A program made the translations under genes and the position numbers. Below are positions 4,768 through 46,070 of a DNA stretch of 64,000 bases, piece by piece (within the stretch, counting starts at the first letter, position 1; every line of letters begins with the position of its first letter). The notes below the pieces were generated by a model. That model saw only the letters and a list, made by a program, of their open reading frames with translations. It did no database searches and was not told the origin of the DNA. The DNA lies in the NCBI GenBank assembly GCA_000092065.1, contig CP000597.1. One strand, 5' to 3'. The DNA is from Ostreococcus lucimarinus. Its lineage: Eukaryota.

Positions 4768-4950
4768 CGCCCATCGACGCCCATTTTCATCGCTTCGCCT
4801 CCCTCGCGCCTCGCGTCCCGCGTCCGTCGCTCCCGCCTAACCACCCCTGACGAGTCGTGACCCATCGGGACCCCCGTCGAGTTTAAACCGTGCGCGCGAG
4901 CCGCGGGCGGTCGCGCACTTCGCGACGCGCCGTCGCGCGCTACGACGCGC

Positions 4951-7900
4951 ATGCGGCTCGACGACGGCGACGACGCGCGACGAAGGGACGCGCGCGCGGT
5001 TCGAGCGCGCGCGACGCGGACGCCGACGCGCGCGGCGACCACGCGCGGCGATGTCGTCGACGCCGCTGCCGCCGATGATGACATCGACGACGACGCCGTC
5101 GCGCGACCGGACGCGACGCGACGACGACGACGCGACGACGACGCGACGACGACGACGCGCGATGATGAGACGACGCGCGCGCGAGAGGGCGCGAGCGGAC
5201 GCCGGCGAGCGCGGGAACGAGGGAGAGCGACGAGGCGTCGTCGACGGCTCGGGACGGCGGCGGCGGCGGCGGCGACGGCGGCGTTGGCGGCGACGGTCGA
5301 GCGCGTCGGCGTGGACGCGTCGACGGCGCTCACGAAGGGGGTGGCGAGGAATGGTTTCGTGTCGTCGAGCGGGTATAAGTACTATAAGGTGAATGTGGCG
5401 TGCGTGGAGGCGGCGCAGCCGCTGACGTTGGAGCTGACGACGAGCAACGGGGACGCGAACTTGTACGTGTCTCGATCGGCGCAGCCGACGACTTCGTCGT
5501 ACGAACAGCGGAGCGTGAACGTTGGAAATGCGTTGGATTCGGTGACGATCACGAGTCCGGTGAATGGGTACTATTACGTGAGCGTGTACGGCGCGCTGTC
5601 CAGCACGTACAAGCTTCGAGCGCTCACGACGATGTTTACCGGGAAACATCCGTGCACGGGATTTCGAATCACCGATAGCGACGTCTCGAGCGTTGGCTCG
5701 GGATCTGGAAATCAGTTCATACTGCAAGAAGCGCTCACCGCGAGCGCGGCGGCGGGATTCACCGCGGATGTGTCCGTCGACGGCGACGTCATCCTCGGCG
5801 ACGCGTACACCGATTCGGTGACGGCGAAAGGAGAGCTCAAGCTCGGCGTGACGGACAGTACGTACTACGCCATCACGCGACAATCGCCGAGCGCACCGAG
5901 CAGCAACCCGGGCGGCGCTTTGTCGATCGTCGGCGCGAACGCGACCTATCAGGGGGGATCGGTAAAGATTCTCGGCGGAACGGGCGGTTCGGGGGCGGGC
6001 GGCGACGTCGTGATCGAGGCGGGGTCGGCGTCTGGCGGCAACGGTGGCGATTTGAAGTTACGTGGCGGCACGTCGAACTCAGGAACGGGCGGCGACGTCG
6101 TCATAGATGCCGGAGATAGCACGACACAAGCATCTTCGTACGAGGGCATCATTCACATAGGTCCAACTTCTGCGTCGTTTGTGCGCGTCGGCGAGAGTTC
6201 AAATAAGCAAGTTCAAACCGATATTTTCGGCGACTTGACGGTGCACGGAAATCTCTTGACAACGAATGATGTGGTGTACGCGAACAGCTACACGAGTTAC
6301 GTGCAGGTTTCAACCTCTCAAGACGGCATGTTTCATCAAGAAGTGCGCGCGCCAAAGATTACAGGTCTGGACGCGGAGGACATCACGGGCACTCCAACGA
6401 GCACGTTGACTTTAGACGCTGGCATGCGAGGGAGTCAGCAACACGTCGTGATCGCTCCGAGCGAGGCAACGGCGGTTTACATAGGTAGCAGCACATCCAC
6501 GATTCCGGTCTCGATAAGGCAAGGCGCGAACGCAGGAGACGTGCGAGTGCACGCTGATGGCAGCGGCGCGCTGTCCGTGACTTCGGCCGCAGGGCAGGAC
6601 CTGACGCTCGCGTCCGGCGACGACGTGGTGGTGACCACCGCGGCGAGTAAGACGCTCGCGCTGAAGCAGGACTCGACGAGCATTTTGAGCTGGGACGCGG
6701 CCGGCGCTGTGACTGTGAACTCCGTGAGCGGGCAGGACCTGACGCTGAGCACGGGCGGTAGCGCGGCCGTGACTGTGGACTCGACCGGGCAGGTGGGCAT
6801 CGGGACGACGACGCCGGGGAAGACGCTGGACGTCACCGGGACGGCGCGCGTGAGTGGCGCGACGACGCTGAGTAGCACGCTTGACGTGACTGGCGCTACG
6901 ACGCTCGCATCCGTGGGCGTGACCGGTGCGGCCACCGTCGGCGGGACTTTAGGTGTGACTGGCGCTACGACGCTCGCATCCGTGGGCGTGACCGGCGCGG
7001 CCACCGTCGGCGGGACTTTAGGTGTGACTGGCGCTACGACGCTCGCATCCGTGGGCGTGACCGGCGCGGCCACCGTCGGCACGACGCTCGGCGTGACTGG
7101 CGCTACGACGCTCACCGGCGACGTGACGATGAGCAACGACTTGACCGTGAGCGGTGCGCTTACTGTGACATCTGATGCCGCTGTGAGTTTGACCTCTGCA
7201 AGTGGTTCGGACGTGAGCTTGACGAGCGCCGGTACGGGTGGCATCGTGTTGACGTCGACGGACGACATCACGCTCGATGCTGCCGATGATGTGACGATCG
7301 ATGCCGCCGGTGCTTTGTCTTTGGAGCAGGGCGGGACGAGTATTTTGAGCTGGACCGACACCGGCGCTGTGACTTTGAACTCCTTAGGCGGGCAGACCCT
7401 GAGCGTGTCGAGCCTCAGCTCGGCCGGGAACGCGGGCGCCGTGAGCGTGTCCGGCGGCACGACGACTGGGACGTCCTCGAACACCGGCGGCGACTTGACG
7501 CTGCAATCTGGCGGCGCGCCCGCTGGCAGCGTGAACGGTGACGTTCTGGTGGACTCGGCCACTGGTCTAGGCACCGCCGGCTCGATCACGCTTCGCCAGG
7601 GGGTGGGCGGTGAGCGTGTTTCTGTGGACGCGAACGGCGCCGTGAGTCTGGACACGCACTCCGGGCAGGACCTGACGCTGAGCACGGGCGGTAGCGCGGC
7701 CGTGACTGTGGACTCGACCGGGCAGGTGGGCATCGGGACGACGACGCCGGGGAAGACGCTGGACGTCACCGGGACGGCGCGCGTGAGTGGCGCGACGACG
7801 CTGAGTAGCACGCTTGGCGTGACTGGCGCTACGACGCTCGCATCCGTGGGCGTGACCGGTGCGGCCACCGTCGGCGGGACTTTAGGTGTGACTGGCGCTA

Positions 7901-10900
7901 CGACGCTCGCATCCGTGGGCGTGACCGGCGCGGCCACCGTCGGCACGACGCTCGGCGTGACTGGCGCTACGACGCTCACCGGCGACGTGACGATGAGCAA
8001 CGACTTGACCGTGAGCGGTGCGCTTACTGTGACATCTGATGCCGCTGTGAGTTTGACCTCTGCAAGTGGTTCGGACGTGAGCTTGACGAGCGCCGGTACG
8101 GGTGGCATCGTGTTGACGTCGACGGACGACATCACGCTCGATGCTGCCGATGATGTGACGATCGATGCCGCCGGTGCTTTGTCTTTGGAGCAGGGCGGGA
8201 CGAGTATTTTGAGCTGGACCGACACCGGCGCTGTGACTTTGAACTCCTTAGGCGGGCAGACCCTGAGCGTGTCGAGCCTCAGCTCGGCCGGGAACGCGGG
8301 CGCCGTGAGCGTGTCCGGCGGCACGACGACTGGGACGTCCTCGAACACCGGCGGCGACTTGACGCTGCAATCTGGCGGCGCGCCCGCTGGCAGCGTGAAC
8401 GGTGACGTTCTGGTGGACTCGGCCACTGGTCTAGGCACCGCCGGCTCGATCACGCTTCGCCAGGGGGTGGGCGGTGAGCGTGTTTCTGTGGACGCGAACG
8501 GCGCCGTGAGTCTGGACACGCACTCCGGGCAGGACCTGACGCTGAGCACGGGCGGTAGCGCGGCCGTGACTGTGGACTCGACCGGGCAGGTGGGCATCGG
8601 GACGACGACGCCGGGGAAGACGCTGGACGTCACCGGGACGGCGCGCGTGAGTGGCGCGACGACGCTGAGTAGCACGCTTGGCGTGACTGGCGCTACGACG
8701 CTCGCATCCGTGGGCGTGACCGGTGCGGCCACCGTCGGCGGGACTTTAGGTGTGACTGGCGCTACGACGCTCGGCGGGACTTTAGGTGTGACTGGCGCTA
8801 CGACGCTCGCATCCGTGGGCGTGACCGGCGCGGCCACCGTCGGCACGACGCTTGGCGTGACTGGCGCTACGACGCTCGGCGGGACTTTAGGTGTGACTGG
8901 CGCTACGACGCTCGCATCCGTGGGCGTGACCGGCGCGGCCACCGTCGGCACGACGCTCGGCGTGACTGGCGCTACGACGCTCGCATCTGTGGGCGTGACC
9001 GGTGCGGCCACCGTCGGCGGGACTTTAGGTGTGACTGGCGCTACGACGCTCACCGGCGACGTGACGATGAGCAACGACTTGACCGTGAGCGGTGCGCTTA
9101 CTGTGACATCTGATGCCGCTGTGAGTTTGACCTCTGCAAGTGGTTCGGACGTGAGCTTGACGAGCGCCGGTACGGGTGGCATCGTGTTGACGTCGACGGA
9201 CGACATCACGCTCGATGCTGCCGATGATGTGACGATCGATGCCGCCGGTGCTTTGTCTTTGGAGCAGGGCGGGACGAGTATTTTGAGCTGGACCGACACC
9301 GGCGCTGTGACTTTGAACTCCTTAGGCGGGCAGACCCTGAGCGTGTCGAGCCTCAGCTCGGCCGGGAACGCGGGCGCCGTGAGCGTGTCCGGCGGCACGA
9401 CGACTGGGACGTCCTCGAACACCGGCGGCGACTTGACGCTGCAATCTGGCGGCGCGCCCGCTGGCAGCGTGAACGGTGACGTTCTGGTGGACTCGGCCAC
9501 TGGTCTAGGCACCGCCGGCTCGATCACGCTTCGCCAGGGGGTGGGCGGTGAGCGTGTTTCTGTGGACGCGAACGGCGCCGTGAGTCTGGACACGCACTCC
9601 GGGCAGGACCTGACGCTGAGCACGGGCGGTAGCGCGGCCGTGACTGTGGACTCGACCGGGCAGGTGGGCATCGGGACGACGACGCCGGGGAAGACGCTGG
9701 ACGTCACCGGGACGGCGCGCGTGAGTGGCGCGACGACGCTGAGTAGCACGCTTGGCGTGACTGGCGCTACGACGCTCGCATCCGTGGGCGTGACCGGTGC
9801 GGCCACCGTCGGCGGGACTTTAGGTGTGACTGGCGCTACGACGCTCGGCGGGACTTTAGGTGTGACTGGCGCTACGACGCTCGCATCCGTGGGCGTGACC
9901 GGTGCGGCCACCGTCGGCGGGACTTTAGGTGTGACTGGCGCTACGACGCTCGGCACGACGCTCGGCGTGACTGGCGCTACGACGCTCGCATCCGTGGGCG
10001 TGACCGGCGCGGCCACCGTCGGCACGACGCTCGGCGTGACTGGCGCTACGACGCTCACCGGCGACGTGACGATGAGCAACGACTTGACCGTGAGCGGTGC
10101 GCTTACTGTGACATCTGATGCCGCTGTGAGTTTGACCTCTGCAAGTGGTTCGGACGTGAGCTTGACGAGCGCCGGTACGGGTGGCATCGTGTTGACGTCG
10201 ACGGACGACATCACGCTCGATGCTGCCGATGATGTGACGATCGATGCCGCCGGTGCTTTGTCTTTGGAGCAGGGCGGGACGAGTATTTTGAGCTGGACCG
10301 ACACCGGCGCTGTGACTTTGAACTCCTTAGGCGGGCAGACCCTGAGCGTGTCGAGCCTCAGCTCGGCCGGGAACGCGGGCGCCGTGAGCGTGTCCGGCGG
10401 CACGACGACTGGGACGTCCTCGAACACCGGCGGCGACTTGACGCTGCAATCTGGCGGCGCGCCCGCTGGCAGCGTGAACGGTGACGTTCTGGTGGACTCG
10501 GCCACTGGTCTAGGCACCGCCGGCTCGATCACGCTTCGCCAGGGGGTGGGCGGTGAGCGTGTTTCTGTGGACGCGAACGGCGCCGTGAGTCTGGACACGC
10601 ACTCCGGGCAGGACCTGACGCTGAGCACGGGCGGTAGCGCGGCCGTGACTGTGGACTCGACCGGGCAGGTGGGCATCGGGACGACGACGCCGGGGAAGAC
10701 GCTGGACGTCACCGGGACGGCGCGCGTGAGTGGCGCGACGACGCTGAGTAGCACGCTTGGCGTGACTGGCGCTACGACGCTCGGCGGGACTTTAGGTGTG
10801 ACTGGCGCTACGACGCTCGCATCCGTGGGCGTGACCGGCGCGGCCACCGTCGGCACGACGCTCGGCGTGACTGGCGCTACGACGCTCGCATCCGTGGGCG

Positions 10901-13900
10901 TGACCGGCGCGGCCACCGTCGGCACGACGCTCGGCGTGACTGGCGCTACGACGCTCACCGGCGACGTGACGATGAGCAACGACTTGACCGTGAGCGGTGC
11001 GCTTACTGTGACATCTGATGCCGCTGTGAGTTTGACCTCTGCAAGTGGTTCGGACGTGAGCTTGACGAGCGCCGGTACGGGTGGCATCGTGTTGACGTCG
11101 ACGGACGACATCACGCTCGATGCTGCCGATGATGTGACGATCGATGCCGCCGGTGCTTTGTCTTTGGAGCAGGGCGGGACGAGTATTTTGAGCTGGACCG
11201 ACACCGGCGCTGTGACTTTGAACTCCTTAGGCGGGCAGACCCTGAGCGTGTCGAGCCTCAGCTCGGCCGGGAACGCGGGCGCCGTGAGCGTGTCCGGCGG
11301 CACGACGACTGGGACGTCCTCGAACACCGGCGGCGACTTGACGCTGCAATCTGGCGGCGCGCCCGCTGGCAGCGTGAACGGTGACGTTCTGGTGGACTCG
11401 GCCACTGGTCTAGGCACCGCCGGCTCGATCACGCTTCGCCAGGGGGTGGGCGGTGAGCGTGTTTCTGTGGACGCGAACGGCGCCGTGAGTCTGGACACGC
11501 ACTCCGGGCAGGACCTGACGCTGAGCACGGGCGGTAGCGCGGCCGTGACTGTGGACTCGACCGGGCAGGTGGGCATCGGGACGACGACGCCGGGGAAGAC
11601 GCTGGACGTCACCGGGACGGCGCGCGTGAGTGGCGCGACGACGCTGAGTAGCACGCTTGGCGTGACTGGCGCTACGACGCTCGCATCCGTGGGCGTGACC
11701 GGTGCGGCCACCGTCGGCGGGACTTTAGGTGTGACTGGCGCTACGACGCTCGCATCCGTGGGCGTGACCGGCGCGGCCACCGTCGGCACGACGCTCGGCG
11801 TGACTGGCGCTACGACGCTCGCATCCGTGGGCGTGACCGGCGCGGCCACCGTCGGCACGACGCTTGGCGTGACTGGCGCTACGACGCTCGGCGGGACTTT
11901 AGGTGTGACTGGCGCTACGACGCTCGCATCCGTGGGCGTGACCGGCGCGGCCACCGTCGGCACGACGCTCGGCGTGACTGGCGCTACGACGCTCGCATCT
12001 GTGGGCGTGACCGGTGCGGCCACCGTCGGCGGGACTTTAGGTGTGACTGGCGCTACGACGCTCACCGGCGACGTGACGATGAGCAACGACTTGACCGTGA
12101 GCGGTGCGCTTACTGTGACATCTGATGCCGCTGTGAGTTTGACCTCTGCAAGTGGTTCGGACGTGAGCTTGACGAGCGCCGGTACGGGTGGCATCGTGTT
12201 GACGTCGACGGACGACATCACGCTCGATGCTGCCGATGATGTGACGATCGATGCCGCCGGTGCTTTGTCTTTGGAGCAGGGCGGGACGAGTATTTTGAGC
12301 TGGACCGACACCGGCGCTGTGACTTTGAACTCCTTAGGCGGGCAGACCCTGAGCGTGTCGAGCCTCAGCTCGGCCGGGAACGCGGGCGCCGTGAGCGTGT
12401 CCGGCGGCACGACGACTGGGACGTCCTCGAACACCGGCGGCGACTTGACGCTGCAATCTGGCGGCGCGCCCGCTGGCAGCGTGAACGGTGACGTTCTGGT
12501 GGACTCGGCCACTGGTCTAGGCACCGCCGGCTCGATCACGCTTCGCCAGGGGGTGGGCGGTGAGCGTGTTTCTGTGGACGCGAACGGCGCCGTGAGTCTG
12601 GACACGCACTCCGGGCAGGACCTGACGCTGAGCACGGGCGGTAGCGCGGCCGTGACTGTGGACTCGACCGGGCAGGTGGGCATCGGGACGACGACGCCGG
12701 GGAAGACGCTGGACGTCACCGGGACGGCGCGCGTGAGTGGCGCGACGACGCTGAGTAGCACGCTTGACGTGACTGGCGTTACGACGCTCGCATCCGTGGG
12801 CGTGACCGGTGCGGCCACCGTCGGCACGACGCTCGGCGTGACTGGCGCTACGACGCTCGCATCCGTGGGCGTGACCGGTGCGGCCACCGTCGGCGGGACT
12901 TTAGGTGTGACTGGCGCTACGACGCTCGGCACGACGCTCGGCGTGACTGGCGCTACGACGCTCGCATCCGTGGGCGTGACCGGCGCGGCCACCGTCGGCA
13001 CGACGCTCGGCGTGACTGGCGCTACGACGCTCACCGGCGACGTGAGCGTCGGGACTTCCTCGGCTTTGAGTTTTGGTTCTGCAACCCGGCAGATGATCAA
13101 CTTATATGGAACAAACAACGCCATCGGCGTGCAATCGTCCACGATGTATTTTCGTAGTGCTTATAACTTTGCCTTTTTTGAAGGCGGCGTGTACACCAAC
13201 ACAGAGCTCGATCCGGGTTCGGGTGGCACTTTGCGCATGATGATTCAGAAAACCACGGGCAACGTCGGTATCGGGACGGCGAGTCCAGATTATGAACTCG
13301 ACGTGGTAGGCGATATCAACTTTTCTGGGAATCTCTATCAGGGTGGTTCGCTGTTTGCCTCCCCCTGGACGGAGAGCAGCGGTAACGTGTATCGCAGTAG
13401 CGGTAACGTCGGCATCGGGCTGACGAATCCGACCTACAATCTGCACGTTGCTGGAACGGGGCGCGTTAGTACGACGCTATCGGTGGGTCAAGATTTAACC
13501 ATCGACACGGCTGGCGACTTGAACTTTGCGGCGACGCATCGTCAGATGATCAACCTCCGCGTCGGCGCCGAGGGTTTCGGGATCGGGACGCAGATGGACA
13601 CGACGTACTTTCGCTCTCCGGGCCACTTTGCGTTCTACGAAGACGGAACGCACAGCACCACTGACTTGGACGCGAACGGTGGCACCGCGCGTCTGGTGAT
13701 CAGGAGCGGCGGGAAGGTGGGCATCGGGCGGACGAATCCGAGCTATGATCTCGACGTGGTAGGCGATATCAACTTTTCTGGGAATCTCTATCAGGGCGGT
13801 TCTCTGTTCCCGTCCCCCTCCCCCTGGACGGAGAGCGGCAGTAACGTGTATCGTAGTAGCGGTAACGTCGGCATCGGGCTGACGAATCCGAGCTACAAAC

Positions 13901-15045
13901 TGGACGTCACTGGAACAGGACACTTCACGGGCGCGACGACGATCGATGACCAACTCACCGTTGGCGGTAACGTATTGATCCAAAGTACAACCAATAAGAT
14001 TTCGTTTGGCAGCACAGCGCGTCAGTTTATTGAAACGAATAACGGTGGAATCGGAACGCAGTCAAAGACGCTGTATTTTCGTTCACAGGATTTTTTCGGC
14101 TTTTACAAAAATGGCGGTCACAACAGCGCCGATCTGAACCCAGGCGGAAGCGGGACTCTCCTTGTCGCCATTCGCGGTGACATCTCTGGTGCTCGAATGG
14201 CGATTGGATCTTCAGACACAGATAGTGGCTACGCTTTTAAGGTCACCGGGTCGGCGCAAGCGACCGCTGCGCTCGACGTAGGCACGACGCTTAATGTGGC
14301 GTCGTACGCGACAATTCGCGGCGACTTGCGCCTCAATACCGGTACTCAGCAAATAAATTTTGGTACCCAGCACCGTCAGGTTGCTGCGCTCGCGACTGGC
14401 GGCATCGGAACGCAGTCGAACACTGTATACTTTCGTTCACAGGACTTGTTTGGCTTTTATAAAGGTGGCGGCCATAGCTCTACCGCTCTTGATCCAGGCG
14501 GAAGCGGGACTCTCCTTGTCACCATTCGCGGTGACGTCTCTGGTCCTCGATTAGGAGTCGGAGTCACGAATCCCTCCTACGCTCTCGAAGTCAATGGAGC
14601 GGCGCACGTGTCTGGCGCACTGAGCAAGGGAAGTGGCTCTTTCAAGATCGATCATCCACTTCCTGAAATGAAAGACACGCATAATTTGTATCACTCCTTC
14701 ATCGAGGGACCACGGGCGGATCTCATCTACAGAGGCAAGGTTCGTTTGCAGAACGGTAGGGCGATGATAGACATCGATGCCGCATCAAACATGACGACAG
14801 GGACATTTGAAGCACTCAATCGCGACGTGCAGTCGTTCACGTCAAATGAAAGCGACTGGGACCCCGTCCGAGGTTCTGTCGTGGGCAACGTCCTCACCAT
14901 TGAGTGTCAAAACCCCACTTCGACGGCACTCATCAGCTGGCTTGTCATCGGTGAGCGTCACGATCAGCACATGTACGACACAGATTGGACCGATGAAAAC
15001 GGTCGTGTCGTTCCGGAACAATTGAAAAAGAGTGCGACGACGTGA
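4951..15045 (+). CDS. Giant (~3364 aa) repeat-rich secreted or surface protein. Architecture: PPC-like N-terminal domain, seven tandem ~300-aa units with nested 23-aa G/T/V/A sub-repeats, phage-tail-fibre-like GIGT repeats, and a C-terminal intramolecular chaperone auto-processing (peptidase S74-like) domain. Exact start uncertain: the first 100 codons are R/D low complexity and a hydrophobic signal-like segment LGTAAAAAATAALAAT lies downstream.
   Basis: Single open frame of 10 kb. The PPC-like segment is KYYKVNV...TTSNGDANLYVSRSAQP...GYYYVSVYG. The repeat unit is SGQDLTLSTGGSAAVTVDSTGQVGIGTTTPGKTLDVTGTARVSGATTLSSTLGVTGATTLASVGVTGAATVGGTLGVTG... The C-terminal part has four copies of (x)GIGTxxPxYxLDVxG / YFRSxxxFxFY motifs. 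The terminal domain GSGSFKIDHPLPEMKDTHNLYHSFIEGPRADLIYRGKVRLQNG matches the ICA / peptidase S74 signature (IDHPL...L.HSF.E.P..D.IYRG). Confidence 0.75.
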   Translation: MRLDDGDDARRRDARAVRARATRTPTRAATTRGDVVDAAAADDDIDDDAVARPDATRRRRRDDDATTTTRDDETTRAREGASGRRRARERGRATRRRRRLGTAAAAAATAALAATVERVGVDASTALTKGVARNGFVSSSGYKYYKVNVACVEAAQPLTLELTTSNGDANLYVSRSAQPTTSSYEQRSVNVGNALDSVTITSPVNGYYYVSVYGALSSTYKLRALTTMFTGKHPCTGFRITDSDVSSVGSGSGNQFILQEALTASAAAGFTADVSVDGDVILGDAYTDSVTAKGELKLGVTDSTYYAITRQSPSAPSSNPGGALSIVGANATYQGGSVKILGGTGGSGAGGDVVIEAGSASGGNGGDLKLRGGTSNSGTGGDVVIDAGDSTTQASSYEGIIHIGPTSASFVRVGESSNKQVQTDIFGDLTVHGNLLTTNDVVYANSYTSYVQVSTSQDGMFHQEVRAPKITGLDAEDITGTPTSTLTLDAGMRGSQQHVVIAPSEATAVYIGSSTSTIPVSIRQGANAGDVRVHADGSGALSVTSAAGQDLTLASGDDVVVTTAASKTLALKQDSTSILSWDAAGAVTVNSVSGQDLTLSTGGSAAVTVDSTGQVGIGTTTPGKTLDVTGTARVSGATTLSSTLDVTGATTLASVGVTGAATVGGTLGVTGATTLASVGVTGAATVGGTLGVTGATTLASVGVTGAATVGTTLGVTGATTLTGDVTMSNDLTVSGALTVTSDAAVSLTSASGSDVSLTSAGTGGIVLTSTDDITLDAADDVTIDAAGALSLEQGGTSILSWTDTGAVTLNSLGGQTLSVSSLSSAGNAGAVSVSGGTTTGTSSNTGGDLTLQSGGAPAGSVNGDVLVDSATGLGTAGSITLRQGVGGERVSVDANGAVSLDTHSGQDLTLSTGGSAAVTVDSTGQVGIGTTTPGKTLDVTGTARVSGATTLSSTLGVTGATTLASVGVTGAATVGGTLGVTGATTLASVGVTGAATVGTTLGVTGATTLTGDVTMSNDLTVSGALTVTSDAAVSLTSASGSDVSLTSAGTGGIVLTSTDDITLDAADDVTIDAAGALSLEQGGTSILSWTDTGAVTLNSLGGQTLSVSSLSSAGNAGAVSVSGGTTTGTSSNTGGDLTLQSGGAPAGSVNGDVLVDSATGLGTAGSITLRQGVGGERVSVDANGAVSLDTHSGQDLTLSTGGSAAVTVDSTGQVGIGTTTPGKTLDVTGTARVSGATTLSSTLGVTGATTLASVGVTGAATVGGTLGVTGATTLGGTLGVTGATTLASVGVTGAATVGTTLGVTGATTLGGTLGVTGATTLASVGVTGAATVGTTLGVTGATTLASVGVTGAATVGGTLGVTGATTLTGDVTMSNDLTVSGALTVTSDAAVSLTSASGSDVSLTSAGTGGIVLTSTDDITLDAADDVTIDAAGALSLEQGGTSILSWTDTGAVTLNSLGGQTLSVSSLSSAGNAGAVSVSGGTTTGTSSNTGGDLTLQSGGAPAGSVNGDVLVDSATGLGTAGSITLRQGVGGERVSVDANGAVSLDTHSGQDLTLSTGGSAAVTVDSTGQVGIGTTTPGKTLDVTGTARVSGATTLSSTLGVTGATTLASVGVTGAATVGGTLGVTGATTLGGTLGVTGATTLASVGVTGAATVGGTLGVTGATTLGTTLGVTGATTLASVGVTGAATVGTTLGVTGATTLTGDVTMSNDLTVSGALTVTSDAAVSLTSASGSDVSLTSAGTGGIVLTSTDDITLDAADDVTIDAAGALSLEQGGTSILSWTDTGAVTLNSLGGQTLSVSSLSSAGNAGAVSVSGGTTTGTSSNTGGDLTLQSGGAPAGSVNGDVLVDSATGLGTAGSITLRQGVGGERVSVDANGAVSLDTHSGQDLTLSTGGSAAVTVDSTGQVGIGTTTPGKTLDVTGTARVSGATTLSSTLGVTGATTLGGTLGVTGATTLASVGVTGAATVGTTLGVTGATTLASVGVTGAATVGTTLGVTGATTLTGDVTMSNDLTVSGALTVTSDAAVSLTSASGSDVSLTSAGTGGIVLTSTDDITLDAADDVTIDAAGALSLEQGGTSILSWTDTGAVTLNSLGGQTLSVSSLSSAGNAGAVSVSGGTTTGTSSNTGGDLTLQSGGAPAGSVNGDVLVDSATGLGTAGSITLRQGVGGERVSVDANGAVSLDTHSGQDLTLSTGGSAAVTVDSTGQVGIGTTTPGKTLDVTGTARVSGATTLSSTLGVTGATTLASVGVTGAATVGGTLGVTGATTLASVGVTGAATVGTTLGVTGATTLASVGVTGAATVGTTLGVTGATTLGGTLGVTGATTLASVGVTGAATVGTTLGVTGATTLASVGVTGAATVGGTLGVTGATTLTGDVTMSNDLTVSGALTVTSDAAVSLTSASGSDVSLTSAGTGGIVLTSTDDITLDAADDVTIDAAGALSLEQGGTSILSWTDTGAVTLNSLGGQTLSVSSLSSAGNAGAVSVSGGTTTGTSSNTGGDLTLQSGGAPAGSVNGDVLVDSATGLGTAGSITLRQGVGGERVSVDANGAVSLDTHSGQDLTLSTGGSAAVTVDSTGQVGIGTTTPGKTLDVTGTARVSGATTLSSTLDVTGVTTLASVGVTGAATVGTTLGVTGATTLASVGVTGAATVGGTLGVTGATTLGTTLGVTGATTLASVGVTGAATVGTTLGVTGATTLTGDVSVGTSSALSFGSATRQMINLYGTNNAIGVQSSTMYFRSAYNFAFFEGGVYTNTELDPGSGGTLRMMIQKTTGNVGIGTASPDYELDVVGDINFSGNLYQGGSLFASPWTESSGNVYRSSGNVGIGLTNPTYNLHVAGTGRVSTTLSVGQDLTIDTAGDLNFAATHRQMINLRVGAEGFGIGTQMDTTYFRSPGHFAFYEDGTHSTTDLDANGGTARLVIRSGGKVGIGRTNPSYDLDVVGDINFSGNLYQGGSLFPSPSPWTESGSNVYRSSGNVGIGLTNPSYKLDVTGTGHFTGATTIDDQLTVGGNVLIQSTTNKISFGSTARQFIETNNGGIGTQSKTLYFRSQDFFGFYKNGGHNSADLNPGGSGTLLVAIRGDISGARMAIGSSDTDSGYAFKVTGSAQATAALDVGTTLNVASYATIRGDLRLNTGTQQINFGTQHRQVAALATGGIGTQSNTVYFRSQDLFGFYKGGGHSSTALDPGGSGTLLVTIRGDVSGPRLGVGVTNPSYALEVNGAAHVSGALSKGSGSFKIDHPLPEMKDTHNLYHSFIEGPRADLIYRGKVRLQNGRAMIDIDAASNMTTGTFEALNRDVQSFTSNESDWDPVRGSVVGNVLTIECQNPTSTALISWLVIGERHDQHMYDTDWTDENGRVVPEQLKKSATT
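6727..13050 (+). repeat. In-frame coding tandem array of seven near-identical units (933, 864, 1074, 1005, 900 and 1107 bp spacing between unit starts, plus a last unit). Each unit contains a variable number of a 69-bp (23-aa) sub-repeat and 33/36-bp partial variants.
   Basis: Unit starts (codon CAG of SGQDL) at 6733, 7666, 8530, 9604, 10609, 11509 and 12616. All spacings are divisible by 3 and differ by multiples of 69, 36 or 33 bp. Units appear essentially identical at nucleotide level by eye. Confidence 0.9.
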
Positions 15046-15163
15046 ACGCGCGTCAGTGTAACACTGACAAACGAGTCGCCGAAACACGCACCTTGAAAAC
15101 GCACGCACGATCAACGGCAAAACGTTACGGCTGTGTGGCGCATTGAGTCTTAATATTGTAAAT

Positions 15164-18100
15164 CTATAGTCTAAAAGATAGCTTTGCGAACTCTCCGTCG
15201 GACACCGCGTCGCTCGTCTGCCCCCCCGTCGCGCCGTCATCGCTCGTTTCGCTTCCGAGCAACGAAGACGCCTTTCGCCGGCGCTCAGGCGAATCGTCCG
15301 CGTCCCGAAAATCGTAGAGATAATCGCTATGCCTTGCATAATGCACCCGCGTCGCTTCTTCTCCTGAGGCATTAAATCTATACGACTCGGGAGAAAATGA
15401 TGACTGAGCGAATCTGTCCTCATCTGACGCGCTCTCTTCGGCGTCGTACGATTCACCCATGGAATACGCCAGTTCGCTCGGTTCACGTTCACTCAGTCCA
15501 TCATTCGGTGTATTCAGCCCTGGTTGGCGTCCACTAGATGGGTCTTTCATCTCAAACGCGTAATGATCGTCATCCGAGTCAGCATCCGTGGAAGATGCGT
15601 AAGCACGCCGCGACTCAAACCTGTTCTCACCAAAAAATGCGGCGCCGCGTAGAGGTTCCGGTGGTTCCAGTTCTAGTTCGGGTTCCGGTTCCGGTCGCAC
15701 TTCCCGTTCTGCTGTCACATCCGTCTCTGGTGCGAGATCTAAGATGGACTGGTTCCGTCCGGGCACGACGTTACCCTGCTCTCCATTCGTCTCGAATGCG
15801 GCGAGCGTCGCGACGTGATCGCGAGCGACACTCCCGCCTCGGTGACCCTTTACGACGGCACGTTCTTCCTGAGCGCTGTGGGTGAATCTCTCAATCACGC
15901 TACGCGCTTTGGTTGATGCGTCAAATAACGCGCCACCAGGTTCGCGCGACCGCACGACTTTCTTTTTAATTCTGATTGCGAGTCGTCGAAGCTGAATCGT
16001 GTGCTTGATAATTTCCACCACCTCCTCGGTGTCGTACAGTCCCTCGTCGTCCGCTGATACTGAGAATCTTTCGAGAATGATCGCCACAAATAAATTTCCG
16101 AGCAAAAATATAGAGATGATGACAAATGATATAAAGTATGGGACCGCAGCAGCGTTATACGAGCAGTCGATGCTGGATTCCAACATGAACGGTGCTTCTG
16201 TGCGTAAGCACGCCTCTGTTTGGTACACCTCGCCGAACGTGCCAACCCAGCCACCCGTGTACACCCCGATGAGAGATGAGCAAGCTGTGGTGAATCGTTG
16301 AAAGTTCGAGTACTTCGATAGCACGCCGCCTTCGAAAGGGCCGGTTTCATCGCCGAAAAGTGAAACACCCATGATGGCGTACGAAAAGATCGCGAGGGAC
16401 GATAGCGCGGCGACGTTTCCGACACCCGGAAGACTCATTATGAACGTGTTGAAGAGCGACCGCAGCCCAGAATGTGCCTTTACCAGTTTCAGTAATCTCA
16501 ACAATCTCACCAATTGTAGGTAATTCATGACACCGCCTGCGTTTAGACTTTGTCCGATCGCCTGTACGATGGAAACTACGACGACGAAGGCGTCCAGCCA
16601 ATTCCAATAATTCCTAAAGTAACGCGTCCGACCTTGCGCCATGAGCAAAAGCATCATTTCCAAAGAGTACACCGCAGTGAACGCGATAGACATGCAGAAG
16701 TGAGCATATTCTGCTGAACTGCTCATATTCGCCGTTTGTGTCAAGAGCTCGATTAAATTTGCGCACACTACCACGAGGATGAAGTACGCAAACTTTTTCG
16801 GCTTTGAGATATGATGCGCAAGTAGACGAGCTCGCGACCAAAGGCTTTTGCCTGGCGGCGGTACGATTCTGCGCCATGCCTCTGAATCTTGCGTGCTTGC
16901 ACGTAGTATAGCCTGCTGCCAGCGCCGCTGCGCTGGGGTGACAAACGTAAGCTTGTCTTGCGAAGCCATCTTGTTAAAGTTGTCCACGAGCGCCGTGACT
17001 AATAAATTCAACCAAAAGAAATTCCCGATGGCGACCGTCAATACAAAATAAAGAGCGGCGGCTTGGTTGTTATCTGTTTTCAAGCCGGTCCCGACGCCTG
17101 TGGTATCCATGGCGACCCACATGATTTCTTGCCAGTCATCGCCGGCGTGCAGTAGAAACGTCGATAAAAGTGCAGCGCCAAAGTTATCAAAGTTGAACTT
17201 TGCATTTCGCCACTTTCCTCCCGCTGCCTCGCACGTTGCTTGTGTAGTGTAGCTACTCGCATCATTCACCACTCGACACGACCAAAACTTACCCATAAAG
17301 AGCTCCATACCAAGAAGTGCGAAAATTGACATGGAAACTAAACCGATGAAGCACACGTAACTTACGGCTGGGATCGCGGAAAGTACAGTGTTAACGACAA
17401 GGCGGAGACCAGGGAAACGACGAATGGATCGAAGCGGGCGCATGATTCGCAAAAGTCGAAGTGCTCGCACGCTTCCGCTGCCATCGTCTGCCGCGGTGAG
17501 CGAAATGATTGATGTAAAGACGACGACGCCATCGAGAATGTTGAAGGAATTCTTCAGATACGCAGTCGGTCGCTCGTACAACCCGTAGGCGAATAACTTT
17601 AATACCATCTCTGCGCCAAATAAAGTCGTAAAAGTAATATCAACCGCGGTGTACACTTTTGCAGTATGAGATCCCGCCACTGGCCAAGTCTTTGTTTCTG
17701 TCGCGAGTAACACGCTACCAGCGATGATCATGCATAGAATGGCGTTCTCAAAGAGGTTGTGTGAAACAATTTTGTGCACCAAGTATTTGTATCTCTCGAC
17801 GGGAATCGTATCGTCGTACAGCGGTATAAAGTCGCCATCTTTTGTGACGATCACGCCCGGTATCTCTGACGACTGTTTCTTCACGCGTGAGGAGATGGAT
17901 CTCGTGATTGTCGCCGCCCAAGGACCGTGCGCGTCAAAGACGACATGCTCGTCTTCCTTACTCTTATCCTCGATGCTTAAACGATTGTTTTGCGCCGCAA
18001 ATCTTTTCGTCATACTGTGCCTAATAGAACTTTTGATAGAGCTAGTCACCCCGAACGCTTTGTCTTGATAGTCTTGATACTCCACAAACTTTGGCGTCAG

Positions 18101-20740: not shown

Positions 20741-20920
20741 CGAATCCCGGCGCGTCGCGCGCCGCGCGTCGCGCGCGCGCGCCGCTGTGCCGACGAATCG
20801 AATCGAAACCGCATTCGCATTCGCGAATCGCGCGCGTCAGAGCGCCGCGCGACACGCCGCTCGACGCGACGCGCCGCGTCGCGACGCGCGACGCCGCGCT
20901 CGACGCGCGCGCGCGCGCGC

Positions 20921-20958
20921 GACGCGCTGAAAACGACGCGACGCGCTGAAAACGGCGC
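20921..20958 (+). repeat. Two tandem copies of a 19-bp motif (gacgcgctgaaaacgRcgc) in the shared channel/calmodulin promoter, about 20 bp upstream of the calmodulin-like ATG.
   Basis: Read directly: gacgcgctgaaaacgacgc followed by gacgcgctgaaaacggcgc. Confidence 0.6.
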
Positions 20959-20976
20959 GTTCGATCGCGCGCGGGC

Positions 20977-21468
20977 ATGTCGCGGAAACACCTCACGGAC
21001 GAGGAGCTCGCGAGCGCGTGGCCGTACCTCACGCGCGCGCAGGTGCAGGAGTTCAAGGAGGCGTTCGATATATTCGACGTCGACGGCGGCGGGACGATCA
21101 CGGCGGAGGAGCTCGGGGAGGTGATGAAGTCGCTCGGGCAGAAACCGACGAGGGCGCAGCTGGAGGCGATGGTGCGGGAGATCGACGCGGACGGGGACGG
21201 GGCGATCGATTTTCCAGAGTTTTTGACGATGATGCTGCGGAAGATGAACGAGGGTGATCCGGAGAGGGAGCTCAGGGACGTGTTCACGGTGTTCGATAAG
21301 GATCAGAGCGGGACGATTAGCGCGGATGAGCTGAAGAGCGTGATGAAGGTCATCGGGGAGAAACTGACGGAGCAAGAGATCGAGGACGCGATTCGGTTGG
21401 CGGATACCACGGGAGACGGAGAGGTTGATTACGATGAGTTCATCGCGTTCGTGCTGTCGTCGAATTAA
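20977..21468 (+). CDS. Calmodulin-like EF-hand protein: four EF hands plus a ~25-aa N-terminal extension.
   Basis: [66 protein letters not shown]...[53 protein letters not shown] is nearly collinear with canonical calmodulin. Confidence 0.85.
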
Positions 21469-21633
21469 GATGAAGCGGCGGTGGCGAGCGCGGGGAAAGC
21501 GTTGAGCTAACGACGAACGCGGAGACGCGTTCGTCGGTGTAATGGTATTCTATTGTCTTGAGCTACTCGCGCGCGCGCCCGCGCGCGCTTCTAAATCGCT
21601 AACGACGCGTTCGCGCCTCGCTTCGTCGTCGCG

Positions 21634-22038
21634 CTACGGCGCGTCACCACCACCTCGTCGCCGTCGGTCCTCGCGAAACGCCTCGACGCTCCGCTCGTAC
21701 TCGCGAGGAACGACGTACAAGAACAGGAACCACCACGCCAGGACGGCGGCGCCGACGATGGTGGTGGATAGCGTTCCGAACCAGCCGGCGACGCGCTCGT
21801 CGAGGTGGAGCACGTTCACTGGCGTCGCGGTGGCGAGCACGCCAGTGGCCACGATTGAGTACGGCTGGCACCACGCGGGTTTCGTCTTCCACATATCTGT
21901 CGGCAGATCGTCGTCGCCCTGGGACGACGCGCGAGCAGGGATGGAAACGATACGACGGTGCGCGCGCGTTCCCGGCGCACGCGCGCGGCAACGAAGCCCC
22001 GCTCGCGTGGGCGCCGGTGGGCGCGCGACGCCGCGCAT
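21634..22038 (-). CDS. Small hypothetical membrane protein (two predicted TM helices); frame and start uncertain.
   Basis: Hydrophobic segments IVATGVLATATPVNVL and TTIVGAAVLAWWFLFLYVV inside an ORF otherwise R-rich at its 5' end. Confidence 0.25.
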   Translation of the reverse strand: MRGVARPPAPTRAGLRCRARAPGTRAHRRIVSIPARASSQGDDDLPTDMWKTKPAWCQPYSIVATGVLATATPVNVLHLDERVAGWFGTLSTTIVGAAVLAWWFLFLYVVPREYERSVEAFREDRRRRGGGDAP

Positions 22039-46035: not shown

Positions 46036-46070
46036 TTCGTAGCGATTATGTAATACTAGCGCTGTGTAGC

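What the first reader, a model, noticed from the sequence alone, without database searches (positions are those of the whole stretch)
6727..13050. Seven near-identical 0.86-1.1 kb in-frame tandem units with nested 69-bp sub-repeat length variation
Unit starts at 6733, 7666, 8530, 9604, 10609, 11509 and 12616 give spacings of 933, 864, 1074, 1005, 900 and 1107 bp. All are multiples of 3 and differ from each other by 69, 36 or 33 bp, that is, by gain or loss of one sub-repeat. Outside those indels the units look nucleotide-identical. This points to very recent amplification or strong concerted evolution (unequal crossing-over), and predicts copy-number polymorphism between strains, as in a surface-antigen or adhesin-type contingency locus. 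It is also the kind of structure that short-read assemblies collapse or expand.
Basis: seen in the sequence. Interest (0 to 1): 0.6.

Follow-up and report, generated by a model that had tools for sequence, protein, structure and literature searches.

The report
Hypervariable repeat shaft, algal fibre gene
The repeats are real: they form the length-variable shaft of a 3,364-residue, phage-tail-fibre-like protein encoded in the nuclear genome of the tiny marine alga Ostreococcus, whose repeat number differs between natural populations and whose end domain also occurs on fibres of giant viruses that infect related algae.

Summary
Observation confirmed. Window 6733-13032 holds six complete units and a truncated seventh. 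Each has a 151-nt head (identical in 7 copies), a variable run of 36- and 69-nt modules, and a 552-nt block (identical in 6 copies). All lie in frame in one ORF (4951-15045, 3,364 aa). The window is Ostreococcus lucimarinus CCE9901-like nuclear DNA.

Chromosome-scale metagenome contigs with 99.5-100% identical flanks carry 10 or 5 units. Two others carry a different nested array (390-nt blocks plus 135-nt modules, at least 13 units) at the same site. Short-read contigs collapse or break there. Two derived amino-acid changes occur in all six window copies, showing homogenisation or recent re-expansion. All length changes are in frame, so this is length variation, not on/off switching.

The protein has a signal-like segment, a PPC domain, the repeat shaft, four knob modules and a 145-aa tip. 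The tip is 50-69% identical to tailed-phage tail-fibre tips and 71-73% to fibres beside capsid genes in Bathycoccus-virus-like prasinoviruses. The best reading is an extracellular, probably trimeric, adhesion or recognition fibre. This is a new variant of a known kind. Surface display, trimer state and ligand are untested.

The parts
4951..15045 (+). Single ORF of 3,364 aa (the giant fibre gene) that contains the whole array
   Evidence: The same gene sits between a pseudouridine synthase gene and a four-domain Ion_trans channel gene in L002, L005, L006, L007, L008 and L110.
4951..5247 (+). Arg/Asp-rich low-complexity N-terminal extension encoded by (CGN)n repeats. Whether it is translated, and where the true start lies, is uncertain.
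   Evidence: TRF rows 4923-5296 and translation. The relatives P0151 and P0153 lack it and start with a signal peptide.
5248..5298 (+). Ala-rich hydrophobic segment LGTAAAAAATAALAATV (aa 100-116). Likely a signal peptide or signal anchor.
   Evidence: It aligns by eye with the N-terminal signal peptides of P0151 (MLALTLCVARA|VDGST) and P0153. No signal-peptide predictor was available, so this is an inference.
5374..5592 (+). PPC (pre-peptidase C-terminal) domain, aa 142-214
   Evidence: Pfam PF04151, E = 1.2e-8, 36.2 bits against a cut-off of 25.9.
5593..6591 (+). Conserved N-terminal beta-rich region with Gly-rich GGxGGDVxI repeats, found only in Ostreococcus-like sequences
   Evidence: Only 9 proteins in 5.8 billion match the N-terminal 495 aa. 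All are Ostreococcus-like metagenome proteins or O. tauri XP_022841210.1.
6592..6732 (+). One copy of the 45-aa module (GQDLTL.SGDDVVV..AS.TLALKQDSTSILSWD) that is amplified in the alternative B-type array
6733..7665 (+). Unit 1 (933 nt): head, modules Lg* Lg Lt, 552-nt block
7666..8529 (+). Unit 2 (864 nt): modules Lg Lt
8530..9603 (+). Unit 3 (1074 nt): modules Lg Sg Lt Sg Lt Lg
9604..10608 (+). Unit 4 (1005 nt): modules Lg Sg Lg St Lt
10609..11508 (+). Unit 5 (900 nt): modules Sg Lt Lt
11509..12615 (+). Unit 6 (1107 nt): modules Lg Lt Lt Sg Lt Lg
12616..13032 (+). Truncated unit 7 (417 nt): head and modules Lt* Lg St Lt, with no 552-nt block
13033..14616 (+). C-terminal region: four older, diverged 'knob' modules (F[GA].T.RQ ... 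YFRS ... LDP ... G.VGIGxxNPxYxLxV), with five junction motifs
   Evidence: Direct-repeat families D16-D18, 82-91% nt identity; motif map; hits to phrog_9942 tail fibre and to PDB 8OND/8OJN.
14617..15042 (+). C-terminal tip domain (~142 aa, ALSKGSGSFKIDHPL...), an all-beta domain shared with phage and prasinovirus fibres
   Evidence: It is always C-terminal in 68 homologues. There are 27 invariant columns. The AF2 model has pLDDT 80-97 over most of residues 80-214. It is 50-56% identical to cyanophage fibres and 71-73% identical to prasinovirus-like fibres. There is no Pfam model.

Best explanation
The array is a real, in-frame, two-level tandem repeat. It encodes the shaft of a giant extracellular fibre protein of Ostreococcus lucimarinus.

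DNA level (shown). Large units of 0.8-1.1 kb each contain a run of 36- and 69-nt modules. Both levels gain and lose copies, always in multiples of three bases, and copies within one array are kept identical. The most likely process (inferred) is unequal homologous recombination, replication slippage and gene conversion between the identical 151-nt and 552-nt blocks.

Protein level (inferred from homology and architecture). A signal-like N-terminus and a conserved PPC/beta-rich domain sit next to the cell. The repeat units build a long all-beta shaft, probably trimeric. Four knob modules and a conserved 145-aa tip sit at the far end. This is the layout of phage tail fibres and of the cell-encoded MAT fibres of Bdellovibrio.

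Adding or removing units or modules changes shaft length without touching the tip. Scaling from the MAT structures gives roughly 11-22 nm per unit and 0.1-0.2 micrometre for the whole fibre; this is a rough extrapolation.

The tip is a module exchanged between tailed phages, prasinoviruses and the Ostreococcus lineage. In the alga the gene is long-resident and host-like, not a recent viral insertion.

Likely role: an adhesion or recognition fibre whose reach varies between strains. The ligand is unknown.
For: Structure of the array.

One intact 10-kb ORF with homology at both ends:
- PPC domain.
- Tip and junction modules.
- GC3 of 0.79 in the array, typical of host coding sequence.

Eukaryotic host and conserved synteny.

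Copy-number and module variation between assemblies with 99.5-100% identical flanks:
- Window 6 units, L006 10, L008 5.
- Alternative B-type array with at least 13 units in L005 and L110. The two differ by exactly one 135-nt module.
- No stop codon in 3,319 aa of the L110 array.

Homogenisation: two derived non-synonymous changes are present in all 6 window copies and absent from all 15 copies in L006 and L008 and from O. tauri.

Fibre nature:
- The GIGTxxPxxxLDVxG junction motif recurs 12 times and is the part shared with 7,207 giant repeat proteins.
- Sequence hits to solved Bdellovibrio MAT fibres 8OND (E = 1.4e-4) and 8OJN (E = 4.8e-4). The MAT layout is described in PMC10769870.
- Tips are swapped between paralogs: P0153 has the same N-terminus and a different tip.
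- The tip model best matches C-terminal domains of phage tailspikes and fibres (7EEA, R2 pyocin fibre, Sf6) and P-SSM2 'tail fiber-like protein'.

Viral relatives:
- Tailed phages.
- 25 NCLDV-marked loci at 71-73% identity. Their neighbouring capsid gene is 84-87% identical to Bathycoccus RCC716 virus capsids.
Against: - No experimental or expression evidence was available. Secretion, surface display, trimerisation and binding are all inferred.
- The window ORF has no Met next to the signal-like segment. It starts 100 codons upstream in low-complexity sequence, so the true start and topology are uncertain.
- The single-chain AF2 model of a unit is poor (pLDDT 50), so the shaft fold is not established.
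- The exact unit number in the window cannot be verified without spanning reads.
- The comparison arrays come from metagenome assemblies. Their technology is inferred from contig names and lengths. Polishing could over-homogenise repeats, and L005 and L006 carry frameshifts that may be errors.
- The tip is highly conserved across hosts as different as cyanobacteria and green algae. It may therefore be a folding or trimerisation cap rather than the ligand-binding part.
- The full-length protein is absent from the protein collection, and no CCE9901 annotation was seen.
Confidence: 0.72

Rival explanations
1. Assembly artefact. The number, order or identity of the units in the window is produced by mis-assembly of a shorter or different repeat.
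For: Identical blocks of 703 nt (552 + 151) are hard to order with reads of about that length. Short-read assemblers demonstrably collapse or break this locus. Long-read polishing can homogenise copies.
Against: Every window unit has its own module string, which is not what a duplicated or collapsed assembly gives. Unit boundaries, head and block recur in independent assemblies from other projects (L006, L008, L029, L030). The frame is preserved over 10 kb. Allele-specific substitutions are consistent across copies. The existence of the array is therefore safe. Only the exact count of 6+1 is unverified.
Confidence: 0.08
2. The fibre is part of the alga-prasinovirus arms race. It could be a viral receptor, or a decoy or shield that carries the same tip as viral fibres. 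On this view virus-driven selection maintains the array types and lengths.
For: The closest viral tips (71-73%) are in fibre genes beside capsid genes of Bathycoccus-virus-like prasinoviruses. PMC12906663 describes this region in O. tauri viruses as a hypervariable host-recognition region under positive selection. Host tips lie next to the NCLDV tips in an NJ tree. There are two very different array haplotypes on flanks that differ by 0.4-0.5%.
Against: The similarity is confined to the tip and junction modules; shafts and N-termini differ. The matching viruses resemble Bathycoccus viruses, not known Ostreococcus viruses. The same tip is common in phages of bacteria (more than 575 viral stretches), which argues for a generic structural role. 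The tree has no support values. No infection data exist. Known Ostreococcus resistance maps to the small outlier chromosome according to the abstracts listed (PMC5082852, PMC13390643), and this window shows ordinary housekeeping gene content.
Confidence: 0.13
3. Recently integrated viral DNA (an endogenous giant-virus or phage fragment) rather than a host gene.
For: There is tail-fibre and prasinovirus homology in the C-terminal third. GC3 is lower in the C-terminal modules (0.63) and the tip (0.585) than in the rest of the gene (0.75-0.79).
Against: No other viral genes flank it; the neighbours are ordinary eukaryotic genes. Synteny is kept in lineages whose ortholog is only 59-81% identical, and an ortholog exists in O. 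tauri. The N-terminal 495 aa are found only in Ostreococcus-like sequences. The neighbouring channel gene and another host ORF have equally low GC3 (0.63 and 0.57). Viral contigs are 36-40% GC against 53% in the tip.
Confidence: 0.04
4. A decaying, non-functional repeat (a pseudogene or coding-looking satellite) evolving neutrally.
For: The reference annotation appears to lack the gene. Some long-read assemblies show frameshifts. An antisense ORF of 2,221 aa shows that stop-free frames arise easily in this repeat.
Against: All 13 heads, 6 blocks and 26 modules in the window, and all units in L006, L008 and L110, keep one frame for up to 3,565 codons. Every indel is a multiple of 3. The tip is 83% identical, and the flanking domains are retained, in an ortholog that is only 59% identical overall. 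One L006 frameshift is a 1-nt insertion followed by a compensating 2-nt insertion about 310 nt downstream, which looks like consensus error or a local variant.
Confidence: 0.03

Closest known systems
Intragenic tandem-repeat (minisatellite) surface-protein genes, such as yeast FLO/ALS adhesins and streptococcal alpha-C/Rib proteins (named from my own knowledge; general reviews appear, e.g. PMC3899988)
   Same: Long, in-frame, nearly identical repeats lie inside a gene for a secreted or surface protein. Copy number differs between strains through recombination or slippage. Copies are homogenised within an allele. Short-read assemblies mis-handle them.
   Different: Here the repeat has two levels (36/69-nt modules inside 0.8-1.1-kb units). 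Two non-equivalent array types occupy the same site in one species. The organism is a wall-less picoalga with a very compact genome. The protein is of the phage-fibre type, not a Ser/Thr-rich stalk. No phenotype has been linked to copy number.
Bdellovibrio bacteriovorus MAT (mosaic adhesive trimer) fibres (PMC10769870; PDB 8OND, 8OJN)
   Same: These are cell-encoded, phage-tail-fibre-like proteins. They have a signal peptide, a conserved cell-proximal N-terminal domain, a long beta shaft with recurring GxxGIGTxxP...L.V.G modules, and swappable C-terminal tips. Sequence hits have E = 1.4e-4 and 4.8e-4.
   Different: The host here is a eukaryote. The N-terminal domain is different (PPC plus a lineage-specific region). 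There is no S74 chaperone. The tip fold is different. The protein is 3-4 times longer, with a recently amplified, polymorphic array. Trimer state and surface display are not shown here.
Tail-fibre and virion proteins of marine T4-like cyanophages (P-SSM2 'tail fiber protein', S-TIM5) and other tailed phages
   Same: The C-terminal ~145-aa tip is 50-69% identical, and the junction modules are shared.
   Different: Those proteins are virion components encoded among tail genes. The algal gene is chromosomal, syntenic across species, and has an unrelated N-terminus and shaft.
Fibre-like genes ('FhaB / cell wall surface anchor family') of the prasinovirus hypervariable region (PMC12906663) and their Bathycoccus-virus-like relatives in IMG/VR (L031-L059)
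   Same: These have the closest tips (71-73%) and the same junction modules. The genes lie beside capsid genes in a fast-evolving host-recognition region.
   Different: The N-terminal domains differ (propeller-like and discoidin-like regions, by eye). The A-type and B-type units are absent. GC is 36-40%. I did not compare directly with the published OtV proteins, so equivalence with the 'FhaB' genes of that paper is inferred from layout and annotation only.

Membership tests
Intragenic VNTR surface-protein genes (FLO/ALS/alpha-C type) | In-frame tandem units with very high nucleotide identity inside one ORF | tested here: met
   Six 552-nt blocks and seven 151-nt heads are 100% identical. All unit lengths are multiples of 3, within ORF 4951-15045.
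Intragenic VNTR surface-protein genes (FLO/ALS/alpha-C type) | Repeat number differs between strains or alleles | tested here: met
   6 (window), 10 (L006) and 5 (L008) complete units, with different module strings. The B-type arrays L005 and L110 differ by one 135-nt module. Caveat: these are metagenome assemblies.
Intragenic VNTR surface-protein genes (FLO/ALS/alpha-C type) | The product is secreted or displayed on the cell surface | tested here: inconclusive
   There is a hydrophobic segment at aa 100-116 aligned with apparent signal peptides of P0151 and P0153, and a PPC domain typical of secreted proteins. No predictor or experiment was available.
Intragenic VNTR surface-protein genes (FLO/ALS/alpha-C type) | Repeat number changes an adhesion or antigenic phenotype | not testable with these tools
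   This needs strains or engineered alleles.
MAT fibres of Bdellovibrio (PMC10769870) | Signal peptide followed by the conserved ~130-aa MAT N-terminal domain | not tested
   The layout is analogous (signal-like segment plus a conserved N-terminal region). No MAT N-terminal sequence was available for comparison, and Pfam finds a PPC domain here instead.
MAT fibres of Bdellovibrio (PMC10769870) | Intertwined trimeric beta-helix/prism shaft | not testable with these tools
   Only single-chain AF2 was available. The unit model is poor (pLDDT 50), with short beta strands only. Sequence similarity to 8OND and 8OJN is limited to the junction modules.
MAT fibres of Bdellovibrio (PMC10769870) | Mosaic, exchangeable C-terminal tip domains on a common chassis | tested here: met
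   P0153 shares 72% identity over the N-terminal region but ends in an unrelated C-terminus. P0151, P0005, P0156 and the window share the tip.
MAT fibres of Bdellovibrio (PMC10769870) | S74 intramolecular chaperone/protease (S74 subgroup only) | tested here: not met
   There is no PF13884 hit in the window protein at E <= 0.1-1. It would correspond to the non-S74 type.
Phage/prasinovirus fibre tip-domain family (P-SSM2 tail-fibre C-terminus) | C-terminal ~145-aa domain with the conserved F.I.HP...L.H..E.P....YRG ... W.V..R.D signature | tested here: met
   27 invariant columns across 25 sequences. 50-56% identity to cyanophages, 60-69% to phage contigs and 71-73% to NCLDV contigs. BFVD hits have E = 1e-15 to 3e-19.
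Phage/prasinovirus fibre tip-domain family (P-SSM2 tail-fibre C-terminus) | Encoded in a viral genome as a virion component | tested here: not met
   The neighbours are eukaryotic housekeeping genes, and synteny is conserved across Ostreococcus lineages.
Phase-variable contingency locus (simple-sequence on/off switch) | Repeat gain or loss shifts the reading frame or promoter spacing, switching expression | tested here: not met
   All modules (36, 69, 135 nt) and units are multiples of 3, so no frame change arises from copy-number change.
Chlorovirus glycoprotein repeat (Pfam PF06598), considered because of the GIGT..P motif | Match to the Pfam model | tested here: not met
   It is not among the Pfam hits at E <= 0.1 for the whole protein, or at E <= 1 for the parts.

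The most novel reading that the evidence does not exclude
A free-living eukaryotic alga has domesticated a phage/giant-virus-type receptor-binding fibre. It diversifies the shaft through a fast, two-level repeat system as part of its interaction with prasinoviruses, for instance as a decoy or shield that carries the same tip as the viral attachment fibres, or as the structure the viruses dock on. Alternative array haplotypes would then be maintained by virus-driven balancing selection.
Probability: 0.13. Interest if true: 0.85.

Novelty: new variant of a known kind. Interest (0 to 1): 0.62.

Why it matters
Ostreococcus is a model for marine picophytoplankton and for alga-giant-virus coevolution. 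It is described as a naked cell, and no surface recognition structure is known for it (my own knowledge).

A 10-kb gene for a fibre perhaps 0.1-0.2 micrometre long would be a concrete candidate for cell-surface recognition of virus, bacteria or mates. Three features support that candidacy: its length differs between co-occurring populations, it exists in two array types, and its tip is shared with prasinovirus host-recognition fibres.

The idea is directly testable, because targeted gene replacement is established in O. tauri (my own knowledge).

The locus also illustrates two other points. A fibre tip has moved between tailed phages, giant viruses and a eukaryote. And an important gene can be missed or truncated: it appears to be absent from the O. 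lucimarinus annotation, it is 'partial' in O. tauri, and it is broken in every short-read assembly examined.

Tried and rejected
- tRNA and Rfam scans of the window found nothing.
- NCBIfam gave no meaningful hit for any part. Pfam has no model for the shaft or the tip.
- A single-chain AF2 model of one unit with a shallow 8-sequence alignment was of low confidence (pLDDT 50), so it was not used for fold search.
- The AFDB50 fold library was unavailable, so the distribution of the tip fold in cultured cellular organisms is unknown.
- The one metagenome DNA scan for the constant block returned only two short-read contigs that begin inside the array.
- Cluster look-ups of ten tip-bearing proteins returned no organism names.
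- Four literature searches for a prior description of this Ostreococcus gene found nothing.
- I first read L002 (1,329 aa) as a natural array-less allele. I rejected that as unproven once its single block proved to be the B-type block at the position of the first block in L005, because a k-mer collapse explains it equally well.
- I first read L008 as a chimera of two species because of its 93.8% right flank. The sliding identity profile shows a mosaic of 98-100% and 80-92% segments instead. The cause is unresolved.
- The antisense ORF 6477-13142 was rejected as a gene. It has no homology support and is an expected by-product of a stop-free GC-rich repeat.
I believe it belongs to a Bathycoccus virus, but that is memory, not a result.

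Full report
**1. The observation**

I split each unit at the conserved codons TGDV. Each unit then has three parts:
- a 151-nt head that is identical in all seven copies;
- a variable stretch of 312-555 nt, counted with the head;
- a 552-nt block with no difference in any of the 15 pairwise comparisons of its six copies.

The seventh unit has no 552-nt block. After TGDV at 13033 the sequence becomes unique. The variable stretch is built from two modules: S (36 nt, GVTGATTLG[G/T]TL) and L (69 nt, GVTGATTLASVGVTGAATVG[G/T]TL). The units read Lg*LgLt, LgLt, LgSgLtSgLtLg, LgSgLgStLt, SgLtLt, LgLtLtSgLtLg and, truncated, Lt*LgStLt. TRF and the repeat finder recover the same periods of 36, 69 and 105 nt and spacings of 864-1107 nt.

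**2. What contains it**

The array lies in one ORF, 4951-15045 on the + strand, 3,364 aa. The antisense ORF 6477-13142 has no homology support and is a by-product of a stop-free repeat.

The window is eukaryotic nuclear DNA. Its neighbours include a pseudouridine synthase, a single-exon four-domain Ion_trans channel, a protein kinase, CCDC93, a fused GATase/chorismate-binding enzyme and an importin. The importin ORF matches Ostreococcus lucimarinus CCE9901 XP_001422121.1 at 680 of 684 residues, and the four mismatches lie at the very end of the ORF. There are no tRNA or Rfam hits.

**3. Anatomy of the protein**

From N to C:
- An Arg/Asp-rich low-complexity stretch encoded by (CGN)n.
- An Ala-rich hydrophobic segment at aa 100-116. 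It aligns with what look like signal peptides at the very start of two shorter relatives, P0151 and P0153.
- A PPC domain at aa 142-214 (Pfam E = 1.2e-8).
- A Gly-rich beta region. The N-terminal 495 aa have only nine relatives in 5.8 billion proteins, all Ostreococcus-like, including O. tauri XP_022841210.1, 'unnamed product, partial'.
- The array (aa 595-2694).
- Four older, diverged knob modules.
- A C-terminal tip of about 142 aa.

The motif G(I/V)G(T/L/R/V)..(N/T)P.Y.L.V occurs 12 times: once per unit head and five times in the C-terminal region.

An exhaustive HMMER search with block plus head found 7,207 proteins. Almost all matched only on that junction motif, which recurs 10-50 times in giant proteins. 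The rest of the block has few relatives.

The C-terminal 670 aa hit a PHROG tail-fibre family. They also hit two solved Bdellovibrio fibre proteins, 8OND (bd2133, E = 1.4e-4) and 8OJN (E = 4.8e-4), through these modules. Those are MAT fibres: cell-encoded, surface-displayed, trimeric, with a conserved N-terminal domain after the signal peptide and mosaic tips (PMC10769870). The Ostreococcus family shows the same mosaic logic. P0153 keeps the N-terminal region at 72% identity but ends in an unrelated C-terminus.

**4. The tip**

The last ~145 aa are always C-terminal in 68 homologues and have 27 invariant columns in a 25-sequence alignment. There is no Pfam model for them.

With that alignment, AF2 gives a confident beta-rich domain (pLDDT 80-97 over most of residues 80-214). 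Its best solved matches are C-terminal parts of phage tailspikes and fibres: cyanophage Pam1 7EEA (E = 8e-4 over 73 columns), K1 lyase, Sf6 and R-type pyocin fibres. All are weak. In BFVD the best named match is the P-SSM2 'phage tail fiber-like protein' (E = 1e-15).

By sequence, the tip is:
- 50-56% identical to cyanomyovirus proteins annotated as tail fibre or virion structural protein;
- 60-69% identical to proteins on tailed-phage contigs that carry sheath, connector or SU10-capsid genes;
- 71-73% identical to the ends of 1,254-1,832-aa ORFs on 25 IMG/VR loci of 36-40% GC. These loci carry an NCLDV major capsid gene and/or a DUF5767 gene next to the fibre gene: 22 carry both, L037 only the capsid, L046 and L048 only DUF5767.

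That capsid protein is 84-87% identical to capsid proteins of Bathycoccus sp. RCC716 viruses 1 and 2, so these are prasinoviruses of the Bathycoccus-virus type. The layout, with fibre-like genes flanked by capsid genes, matches the hypervariable host-recognition region described for O. tauri viruses. There, 'cell wall surface anchor family (FhaB)' genes are under positive selection (PMC12906663). That paper does not mention host homologues.

The viral fibres share only the junction modules and the tip with the algal protein. In an NJ tree without support values, the host tips form one clade beside the NCLDV tips, inside a broad radiation of phage tips.

**5. Is it a host gene?**

Yes. Three lines of evidence agree:
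- The same neighbours flank the ortholog in lineages whose C-terminal region is only 81% (L001) or 59% (L004) identical, and O. tauri has an ortholog.
- GC3 is 0.75-0.79 in the N-terminal part and the array, which is typical of the neighbouring genes. It drops to 0.63 and 0.585 in the knob modules and the tip, but the adjacent channel gene (0.63) and another host ORF (0.57) are just as low.
- No viral genes flank it.

**6.

Look-ups by protein identity returned syntenic loci from at least three independent projects.

*A-type arrays (the window's type).*
- L006 is a 356-kb 'contig_N' record with flanks 100% (left) and 99.5% (right) identical to the window. It has 11 heads and 10 blocks, in units of 795 or 864 nt.
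- L008 (135 kb) has 6 heads and 5 blocks.
- Their units carry only one or two L modules. S modules occur only in the window.
- All 15 blocks in L006 and L008 are identical to one another. They differ from all six window blocks at the same two positions, both non-synonymous (G43D, E71A).
- O. tauri P0156 has D and A at those positions. The window's G and E are therefore derived, yet present in every copy. This is what homogenisation, or re-expansion from one unit, predicts.
- Edge units differ more than inner ones. The D and V variants are in units 1 and 7 of the window.

*B-type arrays.*
- L005 (362 kb) and L110 (362 kb) have left flanks 99.6% identical to the window but none of the window's heads or blocks.
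- They carry a different nested array: at least 13 blocks of about 390-413 nt separated by runs of 135-nt (45-aa) modules (3 to 7 recurrences of the module motif per run in L110).
- The blocks differ by 0-5 nt. The L110 array has no stop in 3,319 codons.
- L005 and L110 differ by exactly one 135-nt module.
- The window keeps a single 45-aa module just upstream of its array (6592-6732). The O. tauri fragment contains both an A-type block fragment and a 45-aa module. The building blocks are therefore old, and what differs is which of them has been amplified.

*Short-read contigs.*
- L002 and L007 (k141 names) cross the locus with one B-type block or none.
- L001, L003, L004, L029 and L030 begin inside the gene or at the array.
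- I therefore do not treat L002 and L007 as evidence for array-less alleles.

*Caveats.*
- The sequencing technology of the long contigs is inferred from their names and near-chromosome lengths. The CCE9901 record that carries the importin is 366 kb.
- L005 and L006 contain frameshifts that may be consensus errors.
- L008 has a mosaic right flank, with segments of 80-100% identity.

**7. Mechanism**

*Shown:*
- a two-level, in-frame array with identical copies;
- allele-specific substitutions shared by all copies;
- different unit and module counts between closely related haplotypes;
- two array types at one site.

*Inferred:* the changes arise by unequal recombination, slippage and gene conversion between the 151/552-nt blocks and between modules. 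Frame and tip are kept by selection.

*Inferred from homology:* the product is an extracellular, probably trimeric, fibre anchored or secreted through its N-terminus, with the tip at the far end. The array sets shaft length. In the MAT paper, 370 aa span 142 Angstrom, and the Bd3182 full-length model is about 550 Angstrom. I take Bd3182 to be 922 aa, because that is the last residue in the paper's construct names. Scaling from those figures, a unit would add roughly 11-22 nm and the whole protein would reach 0.1-0.2 micrometre. This is a rough extrapolation. A single-chain model of one unit was uninformative (pLDDT 50).

Because every change is a multiple of three, this is length variation, not phase variation.

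**8. Comparison and novelty**

As a genetic device, the array belongs with the intragenic tandem repeats of surface adhesins. As a protein, it works like phage tail fibres and Bdellovibrio MAT fibres. Membership in MAT is not established: the N-terminal domain was not compared, the trimer state is not testable here, and S74 is absent.

The following features seem to be new, and four literature searches found no prior description:
- the eukaryotic host;
- the nested architecture, with two alternative arrays at one locus;
- a tip shared with fibres of prasinoviruses that infect a sister genus.

I rate it a new variant of a known kind, with moderate-to-high interest. The more exciting reading, a role in the alga-virus arms race, is not excluded, but it rests only on tip homology and on the polymorphism.

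Noticed in passing
window 4923-5296: (CGN)n trinucleotide repeats encode an Arg/Asp-rich 100-aa extension upstream of the signal-like segment. There is no Met near that segment, whereas P0151 and P0153 start directly with a signal peptide. The real start codon or 5' structure of the gene is therefore uncertain.
   Followed up: partly
window 6477-13142 (- strand): An antisense ORF of 2,221 aa runs through the array. It has no homology support and is most likely an artefact of a stop-free GC-rich repeat, but it could mislead gene callers.
   Followed up: partly
window 46001-48734: This is the lowest-GC tract of the window (0.474 at 46-48 kb). It holds an 887-aa ORF (46071-48734, - strand; GC 0.50, GC3 0.57) with no Pfam hit.
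   Followed up: no
window 14900-16400 and 20370-21840, compared with L008: L008 is 98-100% identical to the window over most of the right flank but only 80-92% in two segments: the 3' ends of the fibre and channel genes, and the region near the EF-hand gene. This could be local hypervariability or introgression, or it could be long-read error. L008's C-terminal fibre region also has extra low-GC insertions of 75 and 169 nt.
   Followed up: partly
window 15164-20740 (- strand): A single-exon 1,858-aa four-domain voltage-gated cation channel (Ion_trans, 4 stretches, E = 5e-171) lies tail-to-tail with the fibre gene. Its GC is unusually low for this genome (0.54, GC3 0.63). It stays next to the fibre gene in all syntenic loci.
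   Followed up: no
L028 3232-11628 (JGI 3300046170, 63-kb contig): A related fibre gene has a 77% identical N-terminal region and is split into 614 + 889 + 142 + 928-aa calls. It sits in a different genomic context (isoamylase, prefoldin, PMSR, DEAD helicase). It is either a paralog or a relocated ortholog in another Ostreococcus-like lineage.
   Followed up: no
P0153 (723 aa) versus P0151 (778 aa): These are two short members of the same Ostreococcus-like family. They share the signal peptide, PPC domain and N-terminal region but end in unrelated C-terminal domains, so tips are swapped within the algal family. Both come from short contigs and might themselves be repeat-collapsed.
   Followed up: partly
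L050 425-12413 (IMG/VR, 49% GC): This viral contig has the tip closest to the host clade in the NJ tree. It carries a row of fibre-type genes: ConA-like lectin plus C1q, the tip-bearing fibre, an S74-chaperone fibre and an RCC1-repeat protein. The content resembles that reported for the expanded hypervariable region of some O. tauri viruses, but no capsid marker lies within the 12 kb, so the type of virus is undetermined.
   Followed up: partly
L065 (281-kb contig, 32% GC) and L069 (388-kb contig, 39% GC): Two very large viral contigs also carry the tip domain (67-68% identity). It lies next to collagen-repeat, glycosyltransferase, RmlD-like and BNR-repeat genes. They may be other giant viruses or jumbo phages.
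   Followed up: no
window 13072-14616: The C-terminal region is itself an older, diverged tandem array of four ~115-150-aa knob modules. Two pairs are still 82-91% identical at the DNA level. L002-type alleles lack the first module, so module content varies here too.
   Followed up: partly
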